From NCBI GenBank assembly GCA_009914755.4, contig CP068257.2, forward strand, positions 34,368,001-34,432,000: 64,000 bases of DNA, read 5' to 3'. Positions within the stretch are counted from its first letter, which is position 1, and every line of letters begins with the position of its first letter. Position numbers and translations under genes: made by a program. Under the pieces are notes generated by a model, which was not told where the DNA came from, searched no databases, and saw only the letters and a list, made by a program, of their open reading frames with translations. Below, in pieces: positions 7,860 to 63,694 of this stretch. This DNA comes from the human T2T-CHM13v2.0 reference genome, Homo sapiens.

Positions 7860-9540
7860 GCCTCACACACACACAACACCCACCACAATGCCCAAGCTTC
7901 ACACAACATGCACCCCAACTCTCCCATATACCCCAACTCTCACAACACACACCCTATCAGATGACCCAGCTCTCATACACCTCAACTTTCACACATACCC
8001 CCTCACACACACCCCAACTCACACACACCCCAACTCACACACACCGCAACTCACACCTCAACTCTCACACATCCCAACTCACATACACCCCAACTCACAC
8101 ATACCCCAACTCACACACACCCCAACTCACACACACCCCAACTCCCACATACCCCAACTCCCACACACCCCAACTCCCACACACCCCAACTTCCACATAC
8201 CCCAACTCCCACACACCCCAACTCACACACACTCCAACTCCCACATACCCCAACTCACACACACTGCAACTCACACCTCAACTCTCACACACCCCAACTC
8301 ACATACACCCCAACTCACACACACCCCAACTCTCACATACCTCAACTCACACACTGTAACTCATACCTCAACTCTCACACACACCCCAACTCACACACAC
8401 CCTCACACACCTCAACTCTCACACACACCCCAACTCACATATAACCCAACTCACACACACTATAACTCATACCTCAACTCTCACACACCCCAACTCACAC
8501 ACACCCCAACTCTCACACCCCAACTCACACACACCCCAACTCTCACACACACAACTCACACCTCAACTCACACCCCAACTCATATACACCCCAACTCACA
8601 CACACACTCACATACCTCAACGTACACACACTGCAACTCACACCTCAACTCTCACACACACCCCAACTCACATACACCCCAACTCACACCCACCCCAACT
8701 CTCACATACCTCAACTCACACACACAACTCACACCTCAACTCTCACACACACCCAAACTCTCATAACACACACCCCAACTATCAGATGACCCAACTCTCA
8801 CACACCTCAACTCTCACACACATTCCAACTCACACACACCAGCTCTCACACGCATCCCAATTCACACACACCCTAGCTCTCACAACACACACCCCAACTC
8901 TCACACACCTCAACTCACATCCCAACTCACACACACCCCAGCTCTCACACACCCCAACTCACACACACAACTCACACCTCAACTCTCACACACAACCCAG
9001 TTCTCACACACACTGCAACTCACACACCCCAACTCTCACACATACCACAACTCTCACAGCACACACCCCAACAGATGACCCAACTCACATACACCCCAAC
9101 TGTCACACACATCCCAACTGATACACACCTTAACTCTCACACACTCCAACTCACACCATTCCGACTTACATACACCCCAACTCACACACACCCCAGCTCT
9201 CACACACCCCAACTCACTTCAAGTCACACACCTCAACTCTCACACACCCCAACTCTCACAGCACACACCTCAACAATCAAACGACCTCACACACCCCACT
9301 CACACACATCCCAGCTTGCACCTCAACACACACACTCCAGCTCACACACCCCAATTCACACACACCCCAACTCACACACCCCTCAACTCACACACCCCAA
9401 CTCTCACACACAACTCACACCTCAACTCACACACACTCCAACCCACTCACTTCAACTCTCACACACCCCAACTCACAAATGCCCCAACTCACACACACCT
9501 CAGCGCACACCTCAACTCTCACACACCACAACTCTCATAT
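7860..9540. repeat. Minisatellite of about 1.7 kb with roughly 100 copies of the 16-mer CCCCAACTCACACACA (minus strand GGGGTGTGTGTGAGTT), variant-rich and with higher-order blocks
   Basis: There is direct 16-bp periodicity. The marker motif atcagatgacccaRctc recurs at about 7955, 8775 and 9070. Plus-strand ORFs (214, 302, 111, 198 aa of HTPTHT...) are stop-codon-free repeat artefacts. Confidence 0.9.
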
Positions 9541-11490: not shown

Positions 11491-12381
11491 GGGCAGCACA
11501 GATATAAAACATTTGTATCATCATAGAAAGTTATATTTTCCAGTATATAAGACTAACTACTAAAAAAGGGAAAGGGAGTAGAAAAAAATGGTCTTTAAAA
11601 AAAAAAAGAGGTCCAAAACCTAAGCATCCACTGTATACCTCTCTTGCAGCTTCCTGGAGCCTCATTCAAACACAATAAACATTCAGTTGACTTGTTATGA
11701 GACTCTAGGACTAAATAACCAATGTTGTTCCATTAAAAGATAGTAGCAGTACATGAGCCATGTCTTATTATTTTTGTAATTATTATAAATTTTTAAATAA
11801 ACTGAGAGCAACCCTTTTTGCAAAAGATTGGTTGATGGCCTCCTGTTTATTCTGGGAATCTGTTCTCCTGATTTCTGGTGGGATGATTTTAGATCTTGCT
11901 GGAAAGGAATAGGAAAACATCCTACTTCCCACTTCAAGCACTTTTAGGATATATTTATTTATGATCCTTATTCTTTCCATAAATGTTCAACATAGATTGA
12001 ATGATTTTTCTTATTTTAGGAATTTTCTTAGCATAAGCATTTGCTAAGGACCACCCCAAATTTGGATGTTATTATGGAACAGTAGAGATTATCTTAGTCA
12101 AGGCAAAGCAAGTAATGAAAACCAACTTGGGCTACCTTGATCAGAAAATGAAATTTGTGAGAAGGATGCGGGGGTGCTTCATGGAACCCGAGGATAAGGA
12201 GACTTCATGAGCAACTGGGGGACTGGGAAATCCACGAGCTCTCTGCCTCTTAGCTCCACATCTCTTTGTACAACTACTTTCTCCAGAACTTCATTGTTTA
12301 CTTCACTTCATAGGGTAGAAAAAGACCATCTTATAGCTCTAAGGAATACCTATGGCCACTCCATGACTTCTGGATTTTTGT

Positions 12382-12555
12382 GTGCTCCTTGGTACTCAGG
12401 ATTTCTGAGACCCAATTCTAAGTGCCCAGGAAAGCTGATTTACCCGGCTTGCCCCAGTGATCCAAACAACCATGGAAGGAGGGGGGAACCGTCTTAATGC
12501 AAACGTGTCAGCAACAGGTACTGAGGTCTCAGAAATCCTGAGTACCAAGGAGCAC
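12382..12555. repeat. Perfect 31-bp inverted repeat (arms 12382-12412 and 12525-12555) separated by a 112-bp spacer; a hairpin-forming MITE-like element
   Basis: Arm 1 is gtgctccttggtactcaggatttctgagacc. Arm 2 is ggtctcagaaatcctgagtaccaaggagcac, its exact reverse complement. The bases flanking the arms do not pair. Confidence 0.9.
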
Positions 12556-14074
12556 GCCCTCAGCACTGTGAGACCTGAGTAGATGGTTCAAAATCCAGCC
12601 ATGGGCCACTAAATTTCCACTTAAAATCATTGTCATGGAATCATTCATAATTTACAGTTGCCATTTTGCCATTGACAAAATTGTGGAAAGAAGGAACTTC
12701 CTGACTTGTCTAAAGTCATAGCTACTCATTGGCAGAGACAAAAGAATTATATGTGGACCTTGATTCCTGCCTCCTCCTATTTCTACCACATCCCATTGAA
12801 ACTTTCACCAATTCAATAGAATTGAAATTGTTGAATTTGCACCCACTAATGATCCCTCAATTATTAACTATTCCCATACTTGAATGTTGTGTACACACTT
12901 TTGCACAGTTCTAATGATATGTGCAGCAGGAATCTTGTCTAGGCTGTAGATGAAGCTTGTGGAGGTGAAAGACCCACCCACATGCATGGCATCCACTAAT
13001 TATCATGGGGTCCAGAAACCTCCCCCCAAATTACTGGAATCTCTGTTGAGCCCAGGAGCAGGTAGAACAGTGCCAAGTAGGGGAAGCCCACAGAAGGTGG
13101 GAATAGAGGAGACTGTGACAGTCCCTGGGACAGAGTCTACTGTGCTGGATAAAGGTTGAACCTGATGTGTCAGATTCACCAACAGGACCTGTGGGATAGA
13201 GGGAAATGGTAATTCTAGGTACGACTCTGCCTGGATGCTGCCCGCAGGCTCAACCACATTGACAGTGTGTACATGATTTGGGGAAGAAAAAGGATGTACA
13301 ATACAAACAATTAAGAGAGCTGTAAATTCTTGGGAGCCAGCACCCAGCATCTCTGAAGAGGGAGCGCCTCCAGAAAAGCAGAGATTGGAAGGTGTTTCCC
13401 TAGCGGCAAGAGAGGGGTAAGCCCCAGCACACCTAAAGTCCAGGAGGCAACAGAGGCTGCCTTCCATCCCCACTTTCACTGCTGCCCCCACCCCACCGCC
13501 CCAAGCAAGTATCAGCAGACCAAAGAAGTCTTAGAGCTTTAAGGGGACTTGGAGCTCCAGAAACAAAAGTAAGTTCTACCAACAAGTCCAATGTAGAAAA
13601 CTACGGGGAACGACGCTGATTGGCCCCGTTTGCATTACCTGACAACTCCAGGACCAATCACCATGGTGGGAAGGATGTGGCACCATAAGCAGCACACCCT
13701 GCGTCAGGTGCCCGTTCAGCCCCCCACAACCACACATGTTAGGGGAGGACCAGCAGGACCTCAAAGGTGAAGAGAGGTACTGTTACTGGAGGAAGAAGTG
13801 CTAAACACACCAAAACAGCAGATACCTACTGGGTACTCCCCACCTGAGGGATTTCTACACAGTTAACCTAACAAGGTCAAGAATAAAAGGTATGAATAAG
13901 CTGAAATCACTTTAGAGAGGAGTTTCTGAAAAAGAAGATGCTAAGATAAGACCTTAAAGTTCTCCAAGAGGATAATATGGAAAAAAGACAAGGAACTAAG
14001 ACAACCAAGAAATAGAAGTATAGGAATGAAAAAGACAAAAGAAATAAACTAAAGAGCAATAAAAGTTGTCACAT

Positions 14075-19749: not shown

Positions 19750-20160
19750 GCTTGGAAGCTGGTGCCGGTGGTGGGGGCGGGAGGGGGACGGGGGAGGCAG
19801 TGGGGGAGGCAGCAGTGGGGGAGGAGGTGGGGGGGGAGGAGGCGGGGGGGGAAGAGGCGGGGGGCAGGCGGGGGGGGGAGGAGGCGGGGGGAGGCGGGGG
19901 GGAGGAGGCGGGGGGAGGCGGGGGGGAGGCAGGGGGAGGCAGGAGAAAGGGGGGGAGGGGGAGGCAGGGGGAGGCAGGGGAAAGGGGGGAGGGGAGGCAG
20001 GGGGAAGCAGGGGAAAGGGGGGAGGGGGAGACAGGGGGAGGCAGGGGAAGGGAGGAGGGGGAGGCAGGGGGGGCAGGGGAAAGGGGGGAGGGAGAGGCAG
20101 GGGGAGGGGGGAGTCGGGGGGGCCGGGGGAAGGGGTGCGGGGGGGGTGGGTCCGTTGGTG
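19750..20160. repeat. A roughly 410-bp near-pure polypurine G-tract (GGGGGAGGCAGG/GGGGAAAGGGGGGA)n, forming a G-quadruplex and H-DNA-prone mirror repeat
   Basis: More than 95% G+A on the plus strand with dozens of G4-6 runs. Overlapping ORFs on both strands (145/136 aa plus, 172 aa proline-rich minus) are artefacts of the low complexity. Confidence 0.9.
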
Positions 20161-31082: not shown

Positions 31083-31625
<543 letters not shown>

Positions 31626-31819
31626 TTTTTAAATTGAGATTGGTAAAGTTTTTCTATTTCTTCATAGTAAATATTTTCAGCTTTGCAGGCCATACATAGT
31701 CTCTGTTGCAACTACTCAACTCTGCCTTTGTAAGAACGAAGCAGCTATAGGCAATATGTAAATGAAGGGTGTGGCTGTGTTTCCATGAAACTTTATTAAT
31801 AAAAACAGGAATCAGGGGC

Positions 31820-34482: not shown

Positions 34483-34793
<311 letters not shown>

Positions 34794-34864
34794 TTGCTTA
34801 ATTATCTGTGGAATACAGAAAAAGAAAAAAATCAATACTCTTTAAAAAAATAATCTAGTCCTTA

Positions 34865-35237
<373 letters not shown>

Positions 35238-46794: not shown

Positions 46795-47480
46795 TGCTGG
46801 TGGGGGCAGGTGCTGGCGTGCTGTCAGTGGAACTCTAGCATGTCTGGGGGACACTGGCATGTGTTGTGTGGGGGACACTGGCGTGTTGTGCAGGGGACAC
46901 TGGCATGTCGTGTGGGGGACACTGGCGTGTTCTGTGGGGGCAATGGTGTGTTGTGTGGGGACACTGGCGTGTCGTGTGGGGGACACTGGTGTGTACACGG
47001 GACACTGGCGTGTCGTGCGGGGGGACACTGGCATTTTCTGTGGGGGCAATGGCATGTTGTGTGGGGGACACTGGCGTGTTGTGTGGGGGCAATGGCGTGT
47101 CGTGTGGGGACACTGGCGTGTCGTGCGGGGGACACTGGTGTGTACACGGGACACTGGCGTGTCGTGCGGGGGGACACTGGCATGTTCTGTGGGGGCAATG
47201 GCATGTTGTGTGGGGGACACTGGCGTGTTGTGTGGGGGACACTGGCATGTCGTGTGGGGGACACTGGCGTGTTCTGTGGGGGCAATGGCGTGTTGTGTGG
47301 GGACACTGACGTGTTGTGTGGGGGACACTGGCGTGTGCACGGGACACTGGCATGTCATGTGGGGGACACTGGTGTGTTGTGCGGGGGACACTGGCATGTT
47401 CTGTGGGGGCAATGGCGTGTTGTGTGGGGGACACTGGTGTGTTGTGTGAGGACACTGGTGTGTTGTGTGAGGGGCACTGA
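46795..47480. repeat. Minisatellite A: about 30 copies of the 22-mer TGTGGGGGACACTGGCGTGTTG (variants CAATGG, TACACGG), with a higher-order period of 146-190 bp
   Basis: Clear tandem periodicity. GGGGG runs every 22 bp give strong G4 potential on the plus strand. Confidence 0.9.
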
Positions 47481-48150
47481 TACGTGTGGTGAGTCGCTGT
47501 CCTACTGTGGGGGGAATCTGATGTGTGTGGGGAGCACTGATGTGTGTGGGGGTCACTGTCCTACTGTGGGGGTCGCTGTCCTATTGTGGGGGCTGCTGAT
47601 GTGTGGGGGGGTTGCTGTCCTACTGTGGGGGGCACTGATATGTGTGGGGACCACTGTCCTACTGTGGGGGCTGCTGTGTGTGGGGGTCGCTGTCCTATTG
47701 TGGGGGCTGCTGTGTGTGGGGGTCGCTGTTCTATTGTGGGGGCTGCTGTGTGTGGGGGTCGCTGTTCTATTGTGGGGGCCGCTGATGTGTGTGGGGGTCG
47801 CTGTTCTATTGTGGGGGCCGCTGATGTGTGTGGGGGTCGCTGTCCTATTGTGGGGGCCGCTGATGTGTGTGGGGGTTGCTGTCCTGTTGTGAGGGCCGCT
47901 GATGTGTGGGGGTCGCTGTCCTGTTGTGGGGCGCTAATATGTGGGGGTCGCTGTCCTGTTGTGGGGCGCTGATGTGAGGAGTCGCTGTCCTGTTGTGGGG
48001 CGCTGATGTGTGTGGGGGTCGCTGATCTATTGTGGGGGCTGATGTGTGTGGGGGTTGCTGTCCTATTGTAGGGGCCGCTGATGTGTGGGGGTCACGTCCT
48101 GTTGTGGGGCACTGATGTGTGGGGGTCGCTGTCCTGTTGTGGGGGCTGAT
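47480..48150. repeat. Minisatellite B: about 17 copies of the 39-40-mer TGTGGGGGTCGCTGTCCTATTGTGGGGGCCGCTGATGTG, abutting array A and apparently a dimerised derivative of the same ~20-bp G-rich motif
   Basis: Tandem periodicity of about 40 bp. The half-units TGTGGGGG(T/C)CGCTG resemble the unit-A core TGTGGGGGACACTG. Stop-free frames give ORFs 46519..47556(-), 46810..47892(+) and others. Confidence 0.88.
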
Positions 48151-51174: not shown

Positions 51175-51309
51175 TCAGGTAAAAGCTGTTTGCAAACTGT
51201 GCAGGGTCTCGGCAGATGCCCTGAGAATCTTTAGCTCTTCCGTCCACAAGGATTCCACCAAAGTTAGTTGGTTTATCAGGGCCTCTTTTTCATCCTTCAT
51301 ATGAGACAC
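51175..51309 (-). CDS. SETD4: SETD4 terminal coding segment (VSHMKDEKEALINQLTLVESLWTEELKILRASAETLHSLQTAFT + TGA stop); the 3' UTR continues to lower coordinates
   Basis: Acceptor aactttcAG|GTGTCTCAT, with a polypyrimidine tract partly supplied by an antisense L1 fragment. There are 44 in-frame codons, then TGA at 51177..51175. Confidence 0.85.
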   Translation of the reverse strand: MSHMKDEKEALINQLTLVESLWTEELKILRASAETLHSLQTAFT

Positions 51310-51324
51310 CTGAAAGTTATTTTT

Positions 51325-51680
51325 TAATTATTGTTATTGTAGTAAAACATATATATATATTTCACAGAACGTACGTACCTTTTTAACCAATTTTAAGTGT
51401 ATGGTTCAGCAGCATGAAGTACATTCACATTGTTTAGATCCACTGCCACTCTCCAGCTCCAGAACTTTTTCTATCACCCAAACAGAAACTCTACAAGCAT
51501 ACATCAATAACCCTATTCCCCTCTTCCCCAAACCCCCCGTCACCTCTACTCCACTCTCTGTCTCTACGAACTCACCTGTTCCAGGAACCTCACAGAAGTG
51601 GATCATACAGCATTTGTCCTTTTGTGTCTGGCTTATTTCATTTCCAATAATGTCTTCAAGCTTCATTAAAATCACTCTTT
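51325..51680 (-). mobile_element. L1 3'-end fragment (antisense), abutting the SETD4 last-exon acceptor
   Basis: gtaaaacatatatatatatttcacag...ttaaccaattttaagtgtatggttcagcagcatgaagtacattcacattgtt...ggatcatacagcatttgtcc. Confidence 0.8.
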
Positions 51681-51829
51681 AAATCCCAGGCATGTTTTCA
51701 TACGAATAAGCTGATTTCTCATTTAACTAAAACATTTACTAAATAAACACATCAATGAGAAAGAATGCTTGAAGTCACACAGTAACTTTTACTTTTTGCC
51801 TTTTAATAAAAAGTAAAGGCAAAGATATG

Positions 51830-53090
<1,261 letters not shown>

Positions 53091-53206
53091 TTATTTAAGG
53101 CACTAAACAATGCTCTTATGAAATGCACTATCCCTAATAACATGTACAAAACAAGGAACTGCTGAATCAAGACACTTCTTTAAGGATGTCATATTCTAGA
53201 AACATA

Positions 53207-53330
53207 CCTTTTGAAGCACAGCATTAGTCTCTTCTATGAAATAATAGCATATTTTCTGGGCTATGTCCAAACTTGTCTTCTCATTCGTATCTGAAATTAC
53301 CTCCCCAAGAAGTACTTTTTTCCAGCATGT
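53207..53330 (-). CDS. SETD4: SETD4 coding exon (124 bp; (F)TCWKKVLLGEVISDTNEKTSLDIAQKICYYFIEETNAVLQK)
   Basis: Acceptor ggttctAG|TACATGCTGG and donor CAAAAG|gtatgt. Phase 2 in and phase 0 out. Confidence 0.86.
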
Positions 53331-55632
53331 ACTAGAACCAAAATGTTCCATGACACAATTTTAGCAGGCTCTCAAAAAACAGATTTTTTTGTTTCAGTGC
53401 AACACATAAACTCCTTCTCCTATTTCTCCAGGAGCATAATACAACTCATTCCATAAGCAGATTCCCCAAACCTCCATGCCACTTGCAGCTCCCATGTGGA
53501 AGCCGACCAGGTAATGAGAGAGGAGGAGGAGGAGCTGAGAATAAAAGCACGGGGGGTGGGTACTCTCTGCAGGCAAGGGCTGAATGTTATTATCATCACA
53601 AACCTGTGTCTGACCCATGAGTGAATGAAGTCCCGTTCCCGGCCATGGGAACGAAGCCAGTGACAGAACAGGAGGGCGAGTCCACAGCCGAAAGGCAGAG
53701 GACTAAGGAGCAAAGGCAGAAGTTTTCCTTCAAGTGACCGTCTGTCCAAAATAGTAGCAAACTGGGCACAATTCACAAAGCCAAATGCTCCATGTCTGGA
53801 AGGAGGAATCTACAGCAAGCCTCTATCCCCATGCAGGTCATTCCAGTGCTCTACTACAAAGGTTCGCAGGAAACGGGGCTCAGTCAGCAGGCAGGGCCCA
53901 CTCTGGAAGGTCTGCTGTGGCAGGTGCAAGGGAGCCACAGCAGGATGCGGAGCAGAGGTGGCAGCGCCAGACCTAGACACTAGAAAGAAGAACTACCGGG
54001 AGAAAGACGACGGAGGACCGGATTCTGAACACCGAGAATCTGGAAGTGGAAGTGGCTTCGAAGGGGAGGAAAGATGGCTGCTGTGGAAGTAAACAGGAGC
54101 CCATTAGATTCAGAACAGCTGGCAAGACACAGCCCGGAATAGTCTCAGAAGGCTTCAGTTTCAGAGATGACAGGTGAAATGAGTTCTCAGTAAAGAAAAA
54201 GGAAATGACTGTGTGTCAGGCATGGTGTTCATGAATAACCATTACCTAATTTAATCTTCACAGTTACCTAGCAAAGAAAGCACGATAATCCGCATGCTAG
54301 ACTCAAAGAAACACTCAGCAAAGTTGAAGCACTCACCCTGAGTGACAGAGCTAGTGAGGCAGAAAGAACTGAAACGCCCCAGCCAGAGCCCCACACGTGC
54401 TTTCTCCACACCCACTCAGTAAGCGGTAACTCAAATGCAAGAAAAGAGGCCTAAGGAAGACCTCTGGGAAACAGCCAGTTGTTGTATTTAATTTTAGGCT
54501 GAAGTGTCCGAAAAGGACTCATACCTTGTTGCCAGAAGGATTTAAAGAAGCTAACATAAGTACACACAAAATAAAAGGTAAGATGAATGAAGGCAGAAAA
54601 CAAGACAAAGGAAGACAAAAGGAGAAAAGACAAGACACTGCAGGAATGGGCCAGTGCGAAACCGCATGTCCCAACACTAGGTACGTTTGCATGCACCTCA
54701 GATTTGCCTCTCAGTTTTCCAGTGAACAAGGAAAAGAAGGAAACATCGGTTAAAGAATTCATAGTATCTGTAAGATAAAAACACTCCATTTGCTAAGAAT
54801 AAAAACAAAAACTATGTCTAGTGTTGAGACCAGAGAGAAATTTTACTCCAAAAGTTCCTAGAGAAAAAGAAGGAAGCAACATCATCTCATCCAAAAGAAG
54901 AACAGGCGTCACTGAAGGGGCACCGACTGCTCCCAGGCACTGTGCCTCATCTCAGTCAGTCCTCCCAACTGTTCAAGGACAGCCTGCACCATCTTCAAGA
55001 GGTTCTCCCTGGATATCTAGCAGCAGAAGGTTGAAGGCTGCTCTCCCTGCCAGGGACTCAGGCTGAAGCTGCCCCTACACTGGGTACAGCACAGCTGGAT
55101 GTGTCGACAGGGGGCTGCAGGGAGCAGGACTGACAGCAGGCAGGAACATGAGGGAGCCTGGCCAGGATGCACACCCACACCGGGGGCTCCCCGACCTGCC
55201 TCCCCCATGGAAAAGTCCAGCTCTTCAGCCAGGTTTCTGGATCTCCCCCAGGGCAGGACCGACGTTAGGGACTCTAGCTCTACTTGTCCTGGGCAAAACC
55301 TACCTACTCAGAGACTTTCCTCTGAACAGTGCCAATGCCCACACTTTTTAAAGGATTTCAGGTCACCAGAAGGAAAATATGAGTAGAAACAAAAAGATTA
55401 TCAAAACTATGTATGCTGAGTCTAAAACCAGAATTCCAAAACGGTTAAAACTTAGAAATGAAACATTCGCTACATGGGCAAGTTACATAATGAGAAAGCA
55501 ACTCCAATGTATGACATCCCTTTTTCCTCCCTGGCTGGGTATCTGAATGCAAGCCAAAAACAAACAAACCAACCCTCCAAAGTTATATCTAGCCTGTTGC
55601 TACAGCTTAAGACCAACACATGTGAAACTTAC

Positions 55633-55713
55633 AATTTCTCAGCTTCCAGACATAACAACTTAAGGGCTGTGAGTAGCCTCCAAGATGGTCCATCCCATCC
55701 AAATGTCAAATTT
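55633..55713 (-). CDS. SETD4: SETD4 coding exon (81 bp; (E)NLTFGWDGPSWRLLTALKLLCLEAEK(F))
   Basis: Acceptor ttcAG|AAATTTGACA and donor GAGAAATT|gtaagt. Phase 2 in and phase 2 out. Confidence 0.86.
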
Positions 55714-55936
55714 CTGAAGTAGAAAAACAAATAATGACAAATCCATCATTTCAGTATTTCATGACCTCATAGCAAATGACTGAAGAGCCAAACACCTTTT
55801 TAAAGAGGTTGCTAAATGTCATGTAACCTGCAACCTCGGCCAAAGGACAAGAGAAAATCAGTCTGCAAATACTTAAGAAGAAAGCCTAAGTAACAGGAAA
55901 TTCTCTCCCCATTTTTTTTCTAAAGAGTAAACAGCT

Positions 55937-56252
<316 letters not shown>

Positions 56253-56864
56253 TTAACCATGGATGAGGGGCCGGAGGCAGGGCCCATGCACAGGAGTTCC
56301 CAGTAAGAGAAACGCTTAAGAACTGGAACTACCCTGGGCATCCCACTGATGGCAGCCACCACTGCCAGGCTGCTCTCACACCATGGCGGGATCATTTCAA
56401 ACTTCATTTCATCCAGAAAAGAAAATCTGAAAGGGAGAGCCTTGAACCCTGTTTAGCCACTTGGCATGGAATCACCTCGCTACCCACCTACCCCAAGAGC
56501 CTGCACCATGTTGCCAGGTGCGTGGGCTCTCCTGAGGCCCAGCCTGGCCTTTCCACATGACCACAAGGGAGACAGACTCACCCTGGGCCACCCATCAACA
56601 CATCCAAGCTCTCTTTTGGTACCATAATTTAATATTTCTAGCTTGTATCTTATGTCCCTAAAGAAGTTTCTTTCAAGTGTCTTATACTCCTTTTGTCCTC
56701 CACAACATCAAGCGCAGTTTTACTGCACATAGTAAGTGCTCAATACCTACCCGTCAGCTGATACAGGGTCAGGAGGGGTCTCACCCCCATGGAAAATTTA
56801 ACCCCAGGTTTTCCATGAAAATTTCCTAAAGGAATAATTTTAAGAGGGAAAGAGAAACACTTAC

Positions 56865-56946
56865 TCTATATAGCCATGATCCTTTAAAATAGAAATCTTT
56901 TTGTCCATCTGTTTATCTGTTGATGGAAGATATTTAACAAGTATTT
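56865..56946 (-). CDS. SETD4: SETD4 coding exon (82 bp; (E)ILVKYLPSTDKQMDKKISILKDHGYI(E))
   Basis: Acceptor atAG|AAATACTTG and donor TATAGA|gtaagtg. Phase 1 in and phase 2 out, which exactly complements the flanking exons. Confidence 0.86.
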
Positions 56947-57882
56947 CTATATTCAAAAAAAAAAATCAGACTGTTAGGGCATAAATTTGGACAAAAGTAT
57001 GTCTCCCTTCCCTTCTCAACTCACTTCCTTTCCCTTTAGCAACCCAGACATGCATAAACAGTTCCACCTAATTCACACAAAGGAAATCTACTCTTCAAGT
57101 CCAATTCAGTCACATCAGTACTGAGTCCCTGAAAGGCTGTAAGAATTTCAAGGCTGGAGGACTAAACACGCATAACCTCAGCTCCTGCTCCCACTAAGTA
57201 AATCCACCAAAAACAAGCAGGTCATTAGGACATCAGCATGACTGTTGAAAATTTACAGTCAACAAAAGTAGAGGCCCTGCAAAAACATGAGGAAAGGTTT
57301 ACAATACTGAGCTTTTTCCAAACCAGAATTCAAAGCAGTCTGGATATTAGTGACTGCAACTACAAAAAACTTAAAGTAAATATGCACAAATTAACAGAGC
57401 TATTTGGAGAAGCAGGGTAATAAGGGATTTTTCTATTTTATTTTAAAAATGTAAATATAACTAAAATATAATTTTTGCTCAAATTAATTTATTCAACAAA
57501 TGAATACTTCGCGGACATCAATATTAAATTTATCAGGATTTTGAAAACATGAAGCCAATCTCGAAGCTGGTTTTCTAGCAGCAAGACCCAGTTTTTGCTT
57601 TTCTATTTTTATTTTGAGAAATCACATTATTATTCTGCCTATAAGATGGAGTAGTAACAGCTTGGCCAAGTTTCTATCTCCAATCAAATCTATATTTAAA
57701 AATGCTTCAAATTATATATTTAATAAGGCTCTTGCCGTTTTTTCATGGCCTAGAAAACTGCTTCTCTACAGTTTCAGAAAGGGAAAAATCAGTCTTCTAT
57801 GTACTTTTTTAACACTATATTTGGAATTTTCACATCTTAAGTGTAATGGCTAACTTACTATTTTAAAATAATAAAACTGGGC

Positions 57883-58335
57883 CAAGCACGGTAGCTCCCG
57901 CCTATAATACCAACACTCTGGGAGGTTGAGGCAGGAGGATCTCGAGCCCAGGAGTTGAAGACCAGCCTGGGCAACATAACAAGACACTGTCTCTATCATA
58001 TGAAAAAACAAATATTAAAAATAGTAATAATAAAACCAGGCCAGGCACAGTGGCTCACTCCTACAATCCTAGCACTTTGGGAGGCTGAGACAGGTAGATC
58101 ACTTGAGGCCAGAGTTCAAGACCAGCCTGGCCAACACGGCGAAACCCCGTCTCTACTAAAATTACAAAAGTAGCCAGGCATGGTGGTGCGTGCCTGTAAT
58201 CCCAGCTACTCCAGAGGCTAAGGCACAAGAATCACCTGAACCTGGGAGGCGGAGGTTCCAACGAGCCAAGATTACACCACTGCACTCCAGCCTGAGCAAC
58301 AGAGTGCGACTCTGACTCAAAAATAATAAAATCAA
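57883..58335 (+). mobile_element. FLAM-like Alu monomer (57883-58035) followed by a full Alu (58037-58335)
   Basis: Two consecutive left-arm starts at gggccaagcacggtagctcc and caggccaggcacagtggctcac. Confidence 0.9.
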
Positions 58336-58839
58336 TGATGATGGCTAGGTTAATAGATCACAAAAGAACATACATGAAATCAAATCTCACCATGGCAACA
58401 ACCTCCAGAAACAAGGACTATAGGTAGATTTATCTCTGTGATTAACACAGTGTCTTACCCACAGTAGGTGCTTAATAAATATTTTTTATTCATTGCTCTC
58501 TAATCCTATTTTCTTTAGTGCCAGTGACAACGTCTCAGTATAAACATTTCCATCCTTTAATACTGTATTTATTTCCTTAGCAGTTTTCCTTTTCTTCCAT
58601 TCTATCTTCTGACCCAATGCAATGAAAACTTCTCAAAATATCAGTCAAAACTTCGTTGTTTTTACTTCAACACTGAAATTACAGCCAGTAAGAGTAAGGC
58701 TAGGCCTACCTAGAAGAAAATTAGTGATATGTATGTCAGTCTTAAGGTTTTGATATTTTTATTAAAACTGAAAATACACATCTCCAAATGGGGAAAAAAA
58801 TTATATAGTGTTAATGTTAAGAACAAAGTTGATTCCAAC

Positions 58840-59014
58840 CTCTTGAGACATAAACACAAGCATGAGGATTATGGACAGAAACAAATCCGTATTCCAGGAA
58901 CAGCCGTTGATTATCGTGAGGGCCGTAACAGATGAATACCTCTTCATGCTTTCTCCAACGTGAAGTCGTTCTAATTTCGTAAGAATGAGTTTCTTCATTA
59001 AACGCTGCTTTTAC
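58840..59014 (-). CDS. SETD4: SETD4 coding exon (175 bp; VKAAFNEETHSYEIRTTSRWRKHEEVFICYGPHDNQRLFLEYGFVSVHNPHACVYVSR + 1 nt)
   Basis: Minus-strand acceptor ttctAG|GTAAAAGCAGCG and donor TCAAGAG|gttgga. It continues in frame from the previous exon (phase 0 in, phase 1 out). Confidence 0.87.
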
Positions 59015-60639
59015 CTAGAAAGAAAAACTGTTAAGGTATTTTTTAAAGTAAGGTGTAAAACTCCAAAGCTGATTAAGTTATTACATAATATTAATGTGAG
59101 TCAGGTGCAGCTTTCAAACACCCATCAATAAATGTAACTACGCATAGGGAAAATGCCACTTCCGGTTTCATCCACCTCGACTTCACCCCATTGATGACGG
59201 AGGGAGTCCTGCCCTAGGGCTCTGGGGGTGGCCACACCACGACACCCGACACAGCACAGATGAGATCATCAGCAGTTTATTGGTCACGTCCACTCACAGC
59301 CCAGGGAAGGAGGACATGGTGGTGCCAATAAACTTTATCTGTAAAAAGCTAGAGAGTAAATACGTTCAGCTTTGCCAGCACTATGTGGTCTCTGTCACAA
59401 GTTGTTGTATTTTCACAATCCTTTCAAAGTGTAAAAACCATTCTTAGCTCAGGGCTCTTGGGCCACACGCCCACAGGCTGTAGTTCGTGCTGTGGTCTTC
59501 CTACAGTAAACTATAAACTCATTGGTTTGGCACATAAATGCACCAAAAGTCCCAATAAAAATAAATCACTGCTGACGGAGTCCCCATGTCTAGCATCCTA
59601 TCACACTACACACTCCTGATATTATTTCGTCAACATCAACCACAGAAACACTCACCTAATCCCAGGCTCCTTTGCTCCCGATTATTAAAGATACTTCTTT
59701 CTACAAAAGTAACAAGCAGACAGCCCTTGTTCCTGGGCTAAGAAAGCAGAGCGGGAACCTCCCTAAGCTCTGATCTCACGTAGAGAGCACGAAAGCTTAG
59801 CACGTGGGCTCACAAGGCATGGCTGCTCTTCTCCAGTGGAATGTCAGATGAAGGCGACGGCCAGGACACAGATCCCAGCCATGTCCCTCCACAACACACC
59901 CCAAAGTGGTTACAGGTGAGCCAACTGATGGACTCTCTTCCGCTCTCCAAGCCAGGCCTCTACCCCTGCATGCCCTGCAAATACACTCATTTCCTAAATG
60001 AGCCACCTGGGGAAAGCGCTGGGGAGGAGGCGATCTGTGACCACCTCCCAAATCAGGTTTCTTTCATTATTTCCCAGAACCCTTTCCCCACAAATACCCA
60101 TCCATTCAATAAACATTTACTGAACACCTACTATGTGCCAGGCCCTGCCATGAGCACTGAGGTGACAAAGAGGAACAAGACAAAGACCCCATTCTCAAAG
60201 ATTTCAGAGCTCAGTGGGAAAAAGAGCAAGTCAGTCAGCGATCAGAGCGAAGAGAAATGCTGTGACAGCTACAACACCAGTTTAAAAGGGACGGGGCAGG
60301 AAAGCAAGCTAAGCTTCAGTCCCGGAAGGAGGAACGAGGGAGAAGGAAGGAAGGCTCCGCACCACAGGCTGCTGGGAAAGACCGGACAGAGGATGCAGCA
60401 CGAGGCTCTGTAGGCCTGAAGAGCAGAGTGAAGAAAAGGGGCCAAGGCAAGCACTGCGGGAGGGATAGTGGGGTCTAGAAGAACAACAGGAGCCTCCTGA
60501 CGTCAGGCCAACCTGACAGGGTCACCTGAAGCCGCCGACACCTCTCCCTGTGGTGCCACCCACATCTACAGCCACAGGTTCTGGGCAGCGGAAGCCTTCC
60601 TATCCAAATAGAATAGCTGCTCCCTTGTCAGCTTCTCAC

Positions 60640-61069
60640 CTGGACATGTGGGCTATGATTCAGCAGGTCCAGGTACGGAGCGAGTGCACAGGTGTCCGGC
60701 TCTGCAGAAAGGCATTCCCGCTGCCTGGGCCTCAGGTACACGGCTCTGGTGTTGACGGTGCACCAAGCCCACAGCAGGGCACTGTAGCTGAAGATGCTGT
60801 CAACAGCCTCCGCAAACAGAGGCTGCAGAGAAGAGAAAAAGTCTCTGGAGGAAGCAAAGAACTCCTGCACGTGGGCTCTCTGCTCTTCAGCCTTTGCTTT
60901 TAAAGATTTGGGAAGAAGGTTCACCACTTCCGGCTCCAAACAAACAGGGCAGGTATACGCCTTGGGTAAAATCTCCAGGTAAGGCTTCCAAAGAGATCGG
61001 TGCCCAGCATGCTTTTCTGAAACTAAAAAGGTGCACAGCGCCAGCAGAGGAGATGGAGGAGGCTTCCAC
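60640..61069 (-). CDS. SETD4: SETD4 internal coding exon (430 bp; encodes (K)WKPPPSPLLALCTFLVSEKHAGHRSLWKPYLEILPKAYTCPVCLEPEVVNLLPKSLKAKAEEQRAHVQEFFASSRDFFSSLQPLFAEAVDSIFSYSALLWAWCTVNTRAVYLRPRQRECLSAEPDTCALAPYLDLLNHSPHVQ; SET-domain region)
   Basis: Part of the 161-aa minus-strand ORF 60628..61113. Acceptor ttttcaaAG|GTGGAAG at 61071/61070 and donor CAG|gtgagaag at 60639/60638. The exon starts in phase 2 and ends in phase 0. The protein matches my recollection of human SETD4 exactly. Confidence 0.88.
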
Positions 61070-62032
61070 CTTTGAAAATTAAAAGCCAGTTTAAAGGAAT
61101 TACTTTGATTCAAAATACGAAATAAGCCAAGCAGTTTGTTTTGCTGCCAGAAGGAGTGTGTTCAAACTGTCAACACACTCAGTTTACTTAACAGACTCAA
61201 GAGTTCCTTCCTTCCTTCCTTAAGGCTCTTCCTCTCCAGGGGAGCACAGCCCCAGTGCTAGTGCTCTGAAAGAGCCATACTTACATGTCAGAAAAACTGA
61301 CTCACTAAGCCAAGTTCCAGGTTTGTTTGCAAGAGATTCCTCTTTGCAAAAAAACCTCTTTGCTTCCAACTTGGTTCTCCAGTTGTAAACCTTTTGACCT
61401 AAGTCCATTTGTCTCACCTATGTAAAGATATAAAATATGGTGGGGAAAAAATGGTGGAAAGAACTGAGACCTGCACCATCCGATATAGTAATCACTGGGT
61501 ACACAGAGCTATTTAAATTTAACCTTTAATTATTTAGAATTGAATATTTAAAATTCAATCCCTTGGTAAGATAAGCTATGTTTTAATTGCACAATAGCCA
61601 TTCAGAGCTAGTGGCCACCATACTGGACAATGCATAAAAAACATCTGTCATTGCTAAAAGCTCTATTGGAGGGCACCAACCTAAACCAAAACTGAATATG
61701 CTCATATACAGTTGTTGCAGTTCTAAAGCTTTTATTCCTAAGTTTACCTGCTCTATTACAAATTATGTATCACAGTATTTTTACTTGCACAATTGCCGAT
61801 AAAAAGATCTCATGTTGCCTGAATGTATTTAGAAAGTTTTCATCAATCCTTCGACATCCAGATTCCTATACTGCCATACATTCTACTCAAAATTTCAGAA
61901 TGATTCAGAAAATGTTAACAATGACAGCATCATTGTCTCTACACAGGCCTAAAAGACCTATTCACTCTCTTCCAAAAACATGCCAGGGGGAAAAAAGACC
62001 AGCACTTACCTAATGGTTAAGAGACAGTATAC

Positions 62033-62395
<363 letters not shown>

Positions 62396-62767
62396 TCAAA
62401 GATGCCCCAAAACAAAGGCCCAGCAGAACGTGTGCCAGAAAACAGTTCTTCCCCATCAGCCTCCTCTCTTCTATACCTAAATAAAACTAATTCTTTCACA
62501 AAATTAACAGCTCTTCAAAGTTCAAGGAAAACTGAAGTACAATAACGGTAGAAATAAGAGAGAGTAACTTACATTTGTCAAGAGCTACTATGATGGAAGA
62601 GAAGAGGCTACTATGAGCCAAGGCACTCAGCTGTGATTTACATATATTATCCCATTTAATTTTTATTTCTTAGTCAGTGATGGATCGGGATATCATACCC
62701 ACACTCCAGGAAGCCTATTAAAAACCTTAGAAATGCCATTTACAGTGAATTAAGAACAAACTTTCTG

Positions 62768-63062
<295 letters not shown>

Positions 63063-63205
63063 AGCAAGAGAGAGAGAAAGAGAGAGAGAGAGACAAGGAA
63101 GGAAGGAAGGAAGAGAGGGAGGGAGGGAGGGAAGGAGGGAAGGAGGGAGGGAGGGAGGGAGGAAGGCAGGCAGGCAGGCAGGCAGGAAGGCAGGGAGGGA
63201 GGGCA
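63063..63205. repeat. Compound purine microsatellite (GA)n(GGAA)n(GGGA)n(GGCA)n at the 3' tail of a plus-strand Alu
   Basis: agagagagaaagagagagagagagacaaggaaggaaggaaggaag...gggagggagggaggaaggcaggcaggcaggcaggcagg. Confidence 0.95.
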
Positions 63206-63694
63206 AACTTTCTAGAATGGAGTAAACTTTTCACATCATTCAGGTTATTTATCAGCTCTACAAGGGACTGGGTTCTAATGAATTGTGTCTCAAGTGACAT
63301 ATTTGCCATTGACAGACCTTAAGGAGAAGCACTTGCACCAGGTAAGCAAGTGTGTGGTCACTTACTTAGTAATGTATGCCCCTAAGTAGCTTCGAATCAC
63401 TGTGTCCGTGGTGAGCAGGCAACTCTCAGGCAACGAAATAATCATCTGTCCCTCCTGGCCAAAAGGAAAGTAAAGTTGAGGACGCCTATGCTTTGGGAAG
63501 GACCCATGAGTATGAGTCTTACAAAGTCGTTGATCCCACAATCACCTACCAGTAACCCACTGTAACTCAACCAAAAGCCACCAATGAGCCTACCAATGGA
63601 GTCGCTCCCAACTCTGCGAGTCAGCAGATGCACACGAGGCTGCTCCAAGGCGAGGCCCCACAGCCCCAACAAAAATGAAAGGTCAATTATGTGA

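What the first reader, a model, noticed from the sequence alone, without database searches (positions are those of the whole stretch)
12382..12555. Perfect 31-bp inverted repeat with a 112-bp loop (174-bp hairpin element)
The arms gtgctccttggtactcaggatttctgagacc (12382-12412) and ggtctcagaaatcctgagtaccaaggagcac (12525-12555) are exact reverse complements. The flanking bases do not pair, so the boundaries are sharp. A 31/31 match is vastly beyond chance in 64 kb and unusually well preserved for an ancient MITE. It could be a hairpin-forming nonautonomous DNA-transposon relic (MADE1 or MER-like), a recent inverted duplication, a cruciform or fragile site, or the substrate of a hairpin-derived small RNA.
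Basis: seen in the sequence. Interest (0 to 1): 0.5.

Follow-up and report, generated by a model that had tools for sequence, protein, structure and literature searches.

The report
Perfect hairpin from a template switch
A 31-base stretch of non-coding primate DNA downstream of the SETD4 gene is repeated backwards 112 bases away, most likely through a DNA-replication template-switch slip; the perfect hairpin-forming repeat is real, but it looks like an ordinary mutational by-product, not a transposon or a known RNA gene.

Summary
Arms 12382-12412 and 12525-12555 are exact reverse complements (31/31) with a 112-nt spacer and sharp edges, and chance cannot explain this. The window is primate, probably human. 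It holds the 3' half of SETD4 on the minus strand, and the repeat lies about 38.8 kb beyond the SETD4 stop codon in repeat-rich non-coding DNA.

The repeat is not a MITE. It has no target-site duplication and no MADE1/hAT-type termini, there is no second copy in the window, and the spacer and flanks look like decayed MIR SINE fragments. It matches no Rfam family, and the ORFs across it have no homologues.

The right arm fits two alternative colinear MIR alignments. The left arm fits none. Zero mismatches in 62 bases set in old, diverged sequence points to a much younger one-step inverted copy.

The best fit is a short-range template-switch mutation of type 1-4-3-2 / 3-2-1-4, the commonest type catalogued in great apes. 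Confidence is about 0.6, because I could not obtain any outgroup sequence to show the ancestral state. This is a new instance of a known kind of mutation, and its interest is low.

The parts
12382..12412 (.). Left arm, GTGCTCCTTGGTACTCAGGATTTCTGAGACC. Inferred to be the derived copy (the inserted 2->3 fragment).
   Evidence: Exact reverse complement of 12525-12555. Replacing it with random 31-mers does not lower any MIR alignment score (fraction of replacements scoring at least as well: 0.42-1.0).
12413..12524 (.). 112-nt spacer (the hairpin loop). It is weakly MIR-like and colinear with the right arm.
   Evidence: Aligns to remembered MIR consensus positions 25-142 in the orientation continuous with the right arm. 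On its own it scores 94, reached by 4 of 300 shuffles. nhmmer gives E=0.035 in a 1-kb search, which is not significant at window scale (E=2.8).
12525..12555 (.). Right arm, GGTCTCAGAAATCCTGAGTACCAAGGAGCAC. Inferred to be the source template.
   Evidence: It lies inside both competing colinear MIR alignments: antisense MIR at 12401-12602 and sense MIR3 at 12473-12691. Replacing it with random 31-mers lowers the score; only 2.5% and 3.4% of replacements score as well.
12395..12409 (.). Small palindrome inside the left arm, CTCAG-GATTT-CTGAG. Its mirror image sits at 12528-12542 in the right arm.
   Evidence: Read directly from the sequence. A small hairpin that could favour polymerase stalling or fold-back; that role is inference.
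12155..12371 (+). Probable old MIR/MIR3-type SINE fragment in sense orientation, ending about 10 nt before the left arm.
   Evidence: Local alignment to the remembered MIR3 consensus scores 134 (fraction of shuffles at least as good 0.003) and to MIRb 140 (0.01-0.02). nhmmer does not detect it, so this is only suggestive.
12657..12775 (-). Separate MIR core fragment just right of the hairpin.
   Evidence: nhmmer E=0.00096 in a 1-kb search and E=0.016-0.06 at window scale.

Best explanation
The repeat is the footprint of one short-range template-switch mutation during DNA replication. While copying this stretch of old non-coding DNA, the growing strand left its template. It then copied about 31 nt from the opposite strand, or from itself after folding back, at the site of the present right arm. 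It returned to the original template 112 nt away. This wrote a reverse-complement copy, the left arm, over or into the earlier sequence. In the four-point model this is type 1-4-3-2. Its mirror case 3-2-1-4 can arise by intra-strand fold-back. The outcome is an inverted repeat whose spacer is not inverted.

Shown: the arms are exact reverse complements with sharp edges, and the surrounding sequence is unique in the window and non-coding. Inferred: the mechanism, the direction (right arm as source, left arm as copy) and the age. With no CpG in the arms and assumed neutral rates of 0.5-1.2e-9 per site per year, the half-life of perfection is about 9-22 My and the 95% bound about 40-97 My. That is younger than the decayed MIR-type repeats around it. 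No function is implied. As single-stranded DNA or RNA it would form a 31-33 bp stem.
For: The arms match 31/31 and complementarity collapses at once outside them (6/40 outward, 15/40 inward). This is what one copying event predicts, and a decayed long palindrome would not look like this.

The surroundings are old and diverged. MIR-type similarity is so weak that it shows only in shuffle-controlled local alignments, yet the arms carry no mismatch. The arm asymmetry fits a source and a copy: the right arm adds to colinear MIR alignments (2.5-3.4% of random replacements do as well) and the left arm adds nothing. The spacer is colinear with the right arm, so it was not inverted.

The literature fits. 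Template switches create perfect inverted repeats in one step, with or without earlier similarity (PMC5453318; PMC10710096). Type (1-4-3-2, 3-2-1-4), 'inverted repeat', makes up 49% of gold-standard great-ape events (PMC7954356 S1 Table). Copied fragments have a median of 12 nt and a maximum of 128 nt, and 28-83-nt events are described.

The alternatives lack support: no target-site duplication, no Rfam family, no protein homologues.
Against: The defining test could not be run: an outgroup or ancestral sequence that lacks the left arm. Every route to orthologous DNA failed.

The MIR assignment behind the source/copy direction rests on consensus sequences I recalled from memory. Its best per-test shuffle fractions are about 0.003-0.03, and about 32 consensus/orientation/region combinations were tried. 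nhmmer does not confirm it at window scale. Two incompatible MIR alignments score about equally.

The present sequence shows no microhomology at the inferred switch points. Three bases outside the left arm (TGT) extend a match to the sense MIR core. That hints that the left arm could instead be native.
Confidence: 0.6

Rival explanations
1. Two old MIR-type fragments in opposite orientation already gave a partial inverted repeat. Later quasi-palindrome correction or gene conversion made a 31-nt block identical. This is the classical Ripley mechanism, itself a template switch, but one that perfects a repeat instead of creating it.
For: The left flank looks like a sense MIR and the spacer plus right side like an antisense MIR. 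The left arm with its flanks resembles the sense MIR core (score 64, fraction of shuffles at least as good 0.02). The inner 12 nt of the left arm also align to MIR positions 13-24. PMC5453318 describes conversion of near-perfect repeats into perfect ones.
Against: In the best left-flank alignment the left MIR's own core lies near 12255-12290, not at the left arm. The reverse-complemented outer flanks show no significant similarity (score 103, fraction 0.106). All the MIR signals are weak.
Confidence: 0.15
2. It is a functional hairpin kept perfect by selection: an unannotated miRNA-like or double-stranded RNA element transcribed from a non-coding transcript and processed by Drosha/Dicer or edited by ADAR.
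For: The RNA stem is 33 bp, inside the 30-55 range used for miRNA-like template-switch hairpins (PMC10710096). Folding is very stable on both strands.
Against: No Rfam family reaches the gathering score in the window, and no hit overlaps the hairpin even at E<=10. The 112-nt apical region is far larger than in usual animal pri-miRNAs. No expression data are available. Perfect pairing is what a fresh mutation looks like, whereas established miRNA stems usually carry mismatches (general knowledge).
Confidence: 0.07
3. It is a non-autonomous DNA transposon (MITE) whose terminal inverted repeats are the two arms.
For: The overall shape fits: inverted termini around a short interior of 174 bp.
Against: The flanks carry no target-site duplication of any length. 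The termini do not match the MADE1, hAT or Tigger ends as I remember them. No other copy, full or partial, occurs in 64 kb. The arm 22-mer is absent from the metagenome, prokaryote-genome and viral collections, although the metagenome set holds at least one contig with human-identical SETD4 DNA (P0001). The interior resembles MIR. Mammalian DNA transposons are old, so perfect 31-nt termini would be unexpected (for the half-life).
Confidence: 0.05
4. It is an assembly or cloning artefact: a chimeric fold-back read built into the sequence.
For: Fold-back chimeras do create exact inverted copies. No independent assembly of this locus could be retrieved.
Against: Such artefacts normally duplicate everything up to a breakpoint. 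They do not place a clean 31-nt block 112 nt away with normal sequence on both sides. Löytynoja and Goldman report that every candidate event they inspected in human resequencing data was reliable assembly.
Confidence: 0.03

Closest known systems
Short-range template-switch mutations, four-point model, type 1-4-3-2 / 3-2-1-4 (Löytynoja & Goldman 2017, PMC5453318; Walker et al. 2021, PMC7954356)
   Same: A fragment is written as the exact reverse complement of nearby sequence, which gives a perfect inverted repeat with abrupt edges and an uninverted spacer. This is the commonest event type (49% of gold-standard events).
   Different: At 31 nt the fragment is longer than the median of 12 nt, though below the maximum of 128 nt. 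The ancestral state was not seen here. The Walker catalogue excludes events whose donor is RepeatMasker-masked, and the stored copy of its table stops before this part of chr21, so absence from it says nothing.
Template-switch-born hairpins that seeded primate miRNA genes (Mönttinen, Frilander & Löytynoja 2023, PMC10710096)
   Same: A single event yields a perfectly paired stem of miRNA-like length (31-33 bp). More than 6,000 such hairpins are inferred in the primate lineage.
   Different: The loop here is 112 nt, not a compact apical loop. There is no evidence of transcription or processing and no Rfam match.
Quasi-palindrome correction (Ripley 1982; Dutra & Lovett 2006, as cited in PMC5453318)
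   Same: The chemistry is the same: intra- or inter-strand template switching that leaves a perfect inverted repeat.
   Different: The classical case needs an earlier near-perfect repeat and a short spacer. Here any earlier complementarity is weak at best.
MITEs such as MADE1 and MER-type hAT relics
   Same: Short inverted termini around a small interior.
   Different: No target-site duplication, no family-type termini, a single copy in the window and a MIR-like interior.
Head-to-head Alu pairs
   Same: They are the other source of long inverted repeats in this window, for example a 34-nt perfect block with a 114-nt spacer at 34742-34923.
   Different: Their arms extend to 120-300 nt at 75-90% identity, because two separate insertions share a consensus. 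Here the complementarity ends abruptly at 31 nt.

Membership tests
Template-switch mutation (four-point model, type 1-4-3-2 / 3-2-1-4) | A fragment that is the exact reverse complement of a nearby stretch of the same locus | tested here: met
   31/31 complementary, 112 nt apart.
Template-switch mutation (four-point model, type 1-4-3-2 / 3-2-1-4) | Abrupt ends: sequence outside the copied fragment is unrelated to the donor's flanks | tested here: met
   6/40 complementary outward and 15/40 inward, ungapped. The reverse-complemented flanks are not significantly similar.
Template-switch mutation (four-point model, type 1-4-3-2 / 3-2-1-4) | The ancestral or outgroup sequence lacks the repeat, and one reverse-complement copy explains the whole cluster of differences | not testable with these tools
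   No orthologous primate or mammalian DNA could be fetched.
Template-switch mutation (four-point model, type 1-4-3-2 / 3-2-1-4) | Fragment length within the published range | tested here: met
   31 nt, against a median of 12 and a maximum of 128 and described events of 28-83 nt. I did not check a published range for the donor-to-target distance.
MITE / non-autonomous DNA transposon (MADE1, hAT-type MER) | Target-site duplication directly flanking the termini | tested here: not met
   The flanks are ...GGATTTTTGT and GCCCTCAGCA.... There is no TA, TTAA or 8-bp duplication.
MITE / non-autonomous DNA transposon (MADE1, hAT-type MER) | Termini matching a family consensus | tested here: inconclusive
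   The termini start GTGCTCCTTGG. This does not match the MADE1 (TTAGGTTGGTGC...), hAT (CAG/TAG...) or Tigger ends as I remember them. No Dfam search was available.
MITE / non-autonomous DNA transposon (MADE1, hAT-type MER) | Many dispersed copies | tested here: inconclusive
   No other copy within 3 mismatches in 64 kb. No exact 22-mer hits in the three collections. The host genome itself could not be searched.
Known structured RNA / miRNA family | Match to a curated covariance model | tested here: not met
   No Rfam hit at the gathering score in the window. No hit overlaps the hairpin even at E<=10.
Known structured RNA / miRNA family | pri-miRNA geometry: stem of about 35 bp with a compact apical loop | tested here: not met
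   The 33-bp stem is acceptable, but the apical region is about 108-112 nt. The preference for a 35-bp stem and a loop of 10 nt or more is quoted in PMC10710096; that natural animal loops are compact is general knowledge.
Known structured RNA / miRNA family | Transcription and small-RNA reads | not testable with these tools
   No expression data are available here.
MIR SINE (context of the arms) | Colinear similarity to the MIR consensus | tested here: inconclusive
   Local alignments score 131-140, with best shuffle fractions of 0.003-0.02 over about 32 tests. Two rival alignments exist. nhmmer is not significant at window scale. The consensus sequences were recalled from memory; strong hits elsewhere in the window validate them for MIR, MIRb and MIR3, while MIRc was not validated.

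The most novel reading that the evidence does not exclude
The hairpin is a young template-switch product that lies inside a non-coding transcript and is already processed into small RNAs or edited as double-stranded RNA. It would then be a proto-miRNA or endo-siRNA locus caught at birth, with an unusually large loop.
Probability: 0.05. Interest if true: 0.45.

Novelty: new member of a known kind. Interest (0 to 1): 0.17.

Why it matters
It matters little by itself. It is a clean example of how one replication error can write a perfect 31-bp stem into neutral DNA. That process is thought to supply raw material for new hairpin RNAs and to create mutation clusters that aligners and variant callers misread. 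Its practical value is as a caution for genome scans: a perfect short inverted repeat with sharp edges in mammalian DNA more likely records a template switch than a well-preserved transposon.

Tried and rejected
Orthologue hunt, all failed.
- Protein search with the ORF across the hairpin (12198-12494): no hit at E<=10.
- Protein search with a 2,514-aa concatenate of every six-frame ORF in 11650-13650: none of 2,680 candidates scored.
- Exact scans for an arm 22-mer and a spacer 23-mer in the metagenome collection, the prokaryote genomes and, for the arm only, the viral contigs: 0 hits.
- Look-up of the orang-utan SETD4 product, to reach neighbouring DNA: not on record. The 10-kb flank limit could not have reached a site 38.8 kb past the stop codon anyway.

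Published catalogues.
- The stored copy of Walker et al. S2 Data is cut before chr21 at about 36 Mb, and that study excludes RepeatMasker-masked donors.
- The supplement of the microinversion paper has no entry near my estimated coordinates.
- No supplement is held for Löytynoja & Goldman 2017.

MIR profile HMMs built from copies in the window, with or without remembered consensus sequences, did not detect the hairpin region.

Rejected ideas.
- A coding region: no homologues.
- A known RNA: nothing in Rfam.
- An inverted MIR pair as a simple residue of shared consensus: the arms carry identical copy-specific differences, and the homology stops at 31 nt.
- Chance: about 7e-12 expected.

Full report
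**Observation.** The sequence at 12382-12555 is as described. The repeat finder gives arms 12382-12412 and 12525-12555, 31 nt, 100% complementary, 112 nt apart. A search allowing three mismatches finds the arm only at these two places, with none expected in shuffles. By my arithmetic, about 7e-12 perfect 31-nt inverted repeats with a spacer up to 500 nt are expected by chance in 64 kb. Complementarity stops at the arm ends: 6/40 outward and 15/40 inward, ungapped. The 194-nt segment folds at -93.8 kcal/mol as RNA (z = -8.2; a G-U and a G-C pair extend the stem to 33 bp) and at -48.9 kcal/mol as DNA (z = -7.4). Each arm also holds a small palindrome, CTCAG-GATTT-CTGAG. All the other 14-34-nt perfect inverted repeats with a spacer up to 500 nt are Alu-Alu pairs, apart from one 14-nt pair and an (AT)n run.

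**Context.** The window carries at least nine Alu heads, so it is primate. An ORF at 60631-61161 on the minus strand is a SETD4 exon. It is 100% identical to one catalogued sequence and 93% identical to mandrill and orang-utan SETD4. tblastn places the remaining SETD4 coding exons on the minus strand down to a stop near 51178. The hairpin therefore lies about 38.8 kb beyond the SETD4 stop codon, in Alu-, L1- and MIR-rich non-coding DNA. ORFs across it have no homologues. No Rfam family reaches its gathering score anywhere in the window, and no weaker hit (E<=10) overlaps the hairpin.

**Not a MITE.** The bases flanking the arms (GGATTTTTGT / GCCCTCAGCA) share no target-site duplication of any length. 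The termini do not resemble the MADE1, hAT or Tigger ends as I remember them. There is no second copy in 64 kb. The arm 22-mer is absent from the three public collections scanned.

**MIR-like surroundings.** The spacer and flanks resemble MIR SINE sequence. I recalled the MIR, MIRb and MIR3 consensus sequences from memory and validated them by strong hits elsewhere in the window. MIRc was also recalled but not validated in this way.
- Antisense MIR aligns colinearly over 12401-12602 (MIR positions 13-217), score 140, reached by 3 of 1000 dinucleotide shuffles.
- A competing sense MIR3 alignment covers 12473-12691, score 132.
- The left flank 12155-12371 aligns to sense MIR3 or MIRb, with fractions of shuffles at least as good of 0.003-0.02.

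These signals are weak. About 32 consensus/orientation/region combinations were tried, and nhmmer does not confirm them at window scale. I treat them as suggestive only.

**Which arm is the source.** One asymmetry holds under both readings. Swapping the right arm for random 31-mers lowers the MIR score, and only 2.5% and 3.4% of replacements do as well. Swapping the left arm changes nothing. The right arm therefore appears native to its context and the left arm appears foreign. A counter-hint is that three bases outside the left arm (TGT) extend a match to the sense MIR core.

**Age.** The arms have no CpG. With assumed neutral rates of 0.5-1.2e-9 per site per year (general knowledge), 62 paired bases stay mismatch-free with probability one half for about 9-22 My and 5% for about 40-97 My. 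The arms are thus much younger than the decayed repeats around them, but not necessarily human-specific.

**Mechanism.** I know of one described process that writes an exact reverse-complement block with sharp edges a short distance away: short-range template switching in replication.
- The four-point model describes fragment 2->3 copied in reverse complement. Type 1-4-3-2 and its mirror case 3-2-1-4 create an inverted repeat (PMC5453318).
- That type makes up 49% of gold-standard great-ape events, and 3-2-1-4 can arise by intra-strand fold-back (PMC7954356 S1 Table).
- Copied fragments have a median of 12 nt and a maximum of 128 nt. Events of 28-83 nt that create whole stems are documented, and more than 6,000 miRNA-sized hairpins in primates are attributed to the process (PMC10710096).

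The switch points here would be 12381/12382, 12555, 12525 and 12413. The spacer stays colinear with the right arm, which fits the uninverted-spacer type. The present sequence shows no microhomology at the switch points; the literature does not require it.

**What is missing.** The defining evidence would be an outgroup without the left arm, and I could not obtain one. Protein-based and DNA-based routes to orthologous contigs all failed. The published catalogues were uninformative: the stored table is truncated and excludes repeat-masked donors, and the other supplements hold nothing relevant. Confidence in the template-switch origin is therefore about 0.6, plus 0.15 for the closely related variant in which an earlier weak MIR-MIR quasi-palindrome was perfected.

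**Verdict.** The 'recent inverted duplication' option is the one supported. The transposon reading is not supported, and the small-RNA reading has no evidence. This is a new instance of a well-described class of mutation. By my estimate from the figure, such hairpins occur about once per 500 kb of primate genome. Interest is low.

Noticed in passing
window 51178-63634, minus strand: Seven SETD4 coding exon matches (about 63634-63365, 61089-60631, 59065-58838, 56959-56864, 55721-55635, 53330-53205, 51312-51178). The window holds the 3' half of the gene and its downstream intergenic DNA.
   Followed up: partly
window 31140-31653, minus strand: Frameshifted processed pseudogene resembling ribosomal protein L23a. 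I recognised it from the ORF translations and did not search it.
   Followed up: no
window 7965-9526: Long C/A-rich minisatellite of about 99 copies of a 16-nt unit, CCCAACTCACACACAC. It gives GC skew -0.74 over 8-10 kb.
   Followed up: no
window 19770-20150: G-rich repeat block (GGGGGAGG-type units), probably prone to G-quadruplex formation, inside a relatively GC-rich stretch about 7.5 kb from the hairpin.
   Followed up: no
window 46841-48148: Two adjacent G/T-rich minisatellites, with 22/149-nt units at 46841-47493 and 36-39-nt units (about 16 copies) at 47544-48148. They lie about 3 kb beyond the SETD4 stop codon, with local GC 0.56 and GC skew +0.30.
   Followed up: no
window 34742-34923: Head-to-head Alu pair with a 34-nt perfect inverted block and a 114-nt spacer. 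Its arms extend to 121 nt at 83%. It is the only perfect inverted repeat in the window longer than the one studied.
   Followed up: partly
window 63096-63203: (AGGG)27 tetranucleotide repeat next to the first SETD4 coding exon seen in the window.
   Followed up: no
window 12023-12212: Weak Rfam hit to RMST_9 (21.8 bits against a gathering score of 65, E=0.18 in a 1-kb search). It is most likely chance.
   Followed up: no
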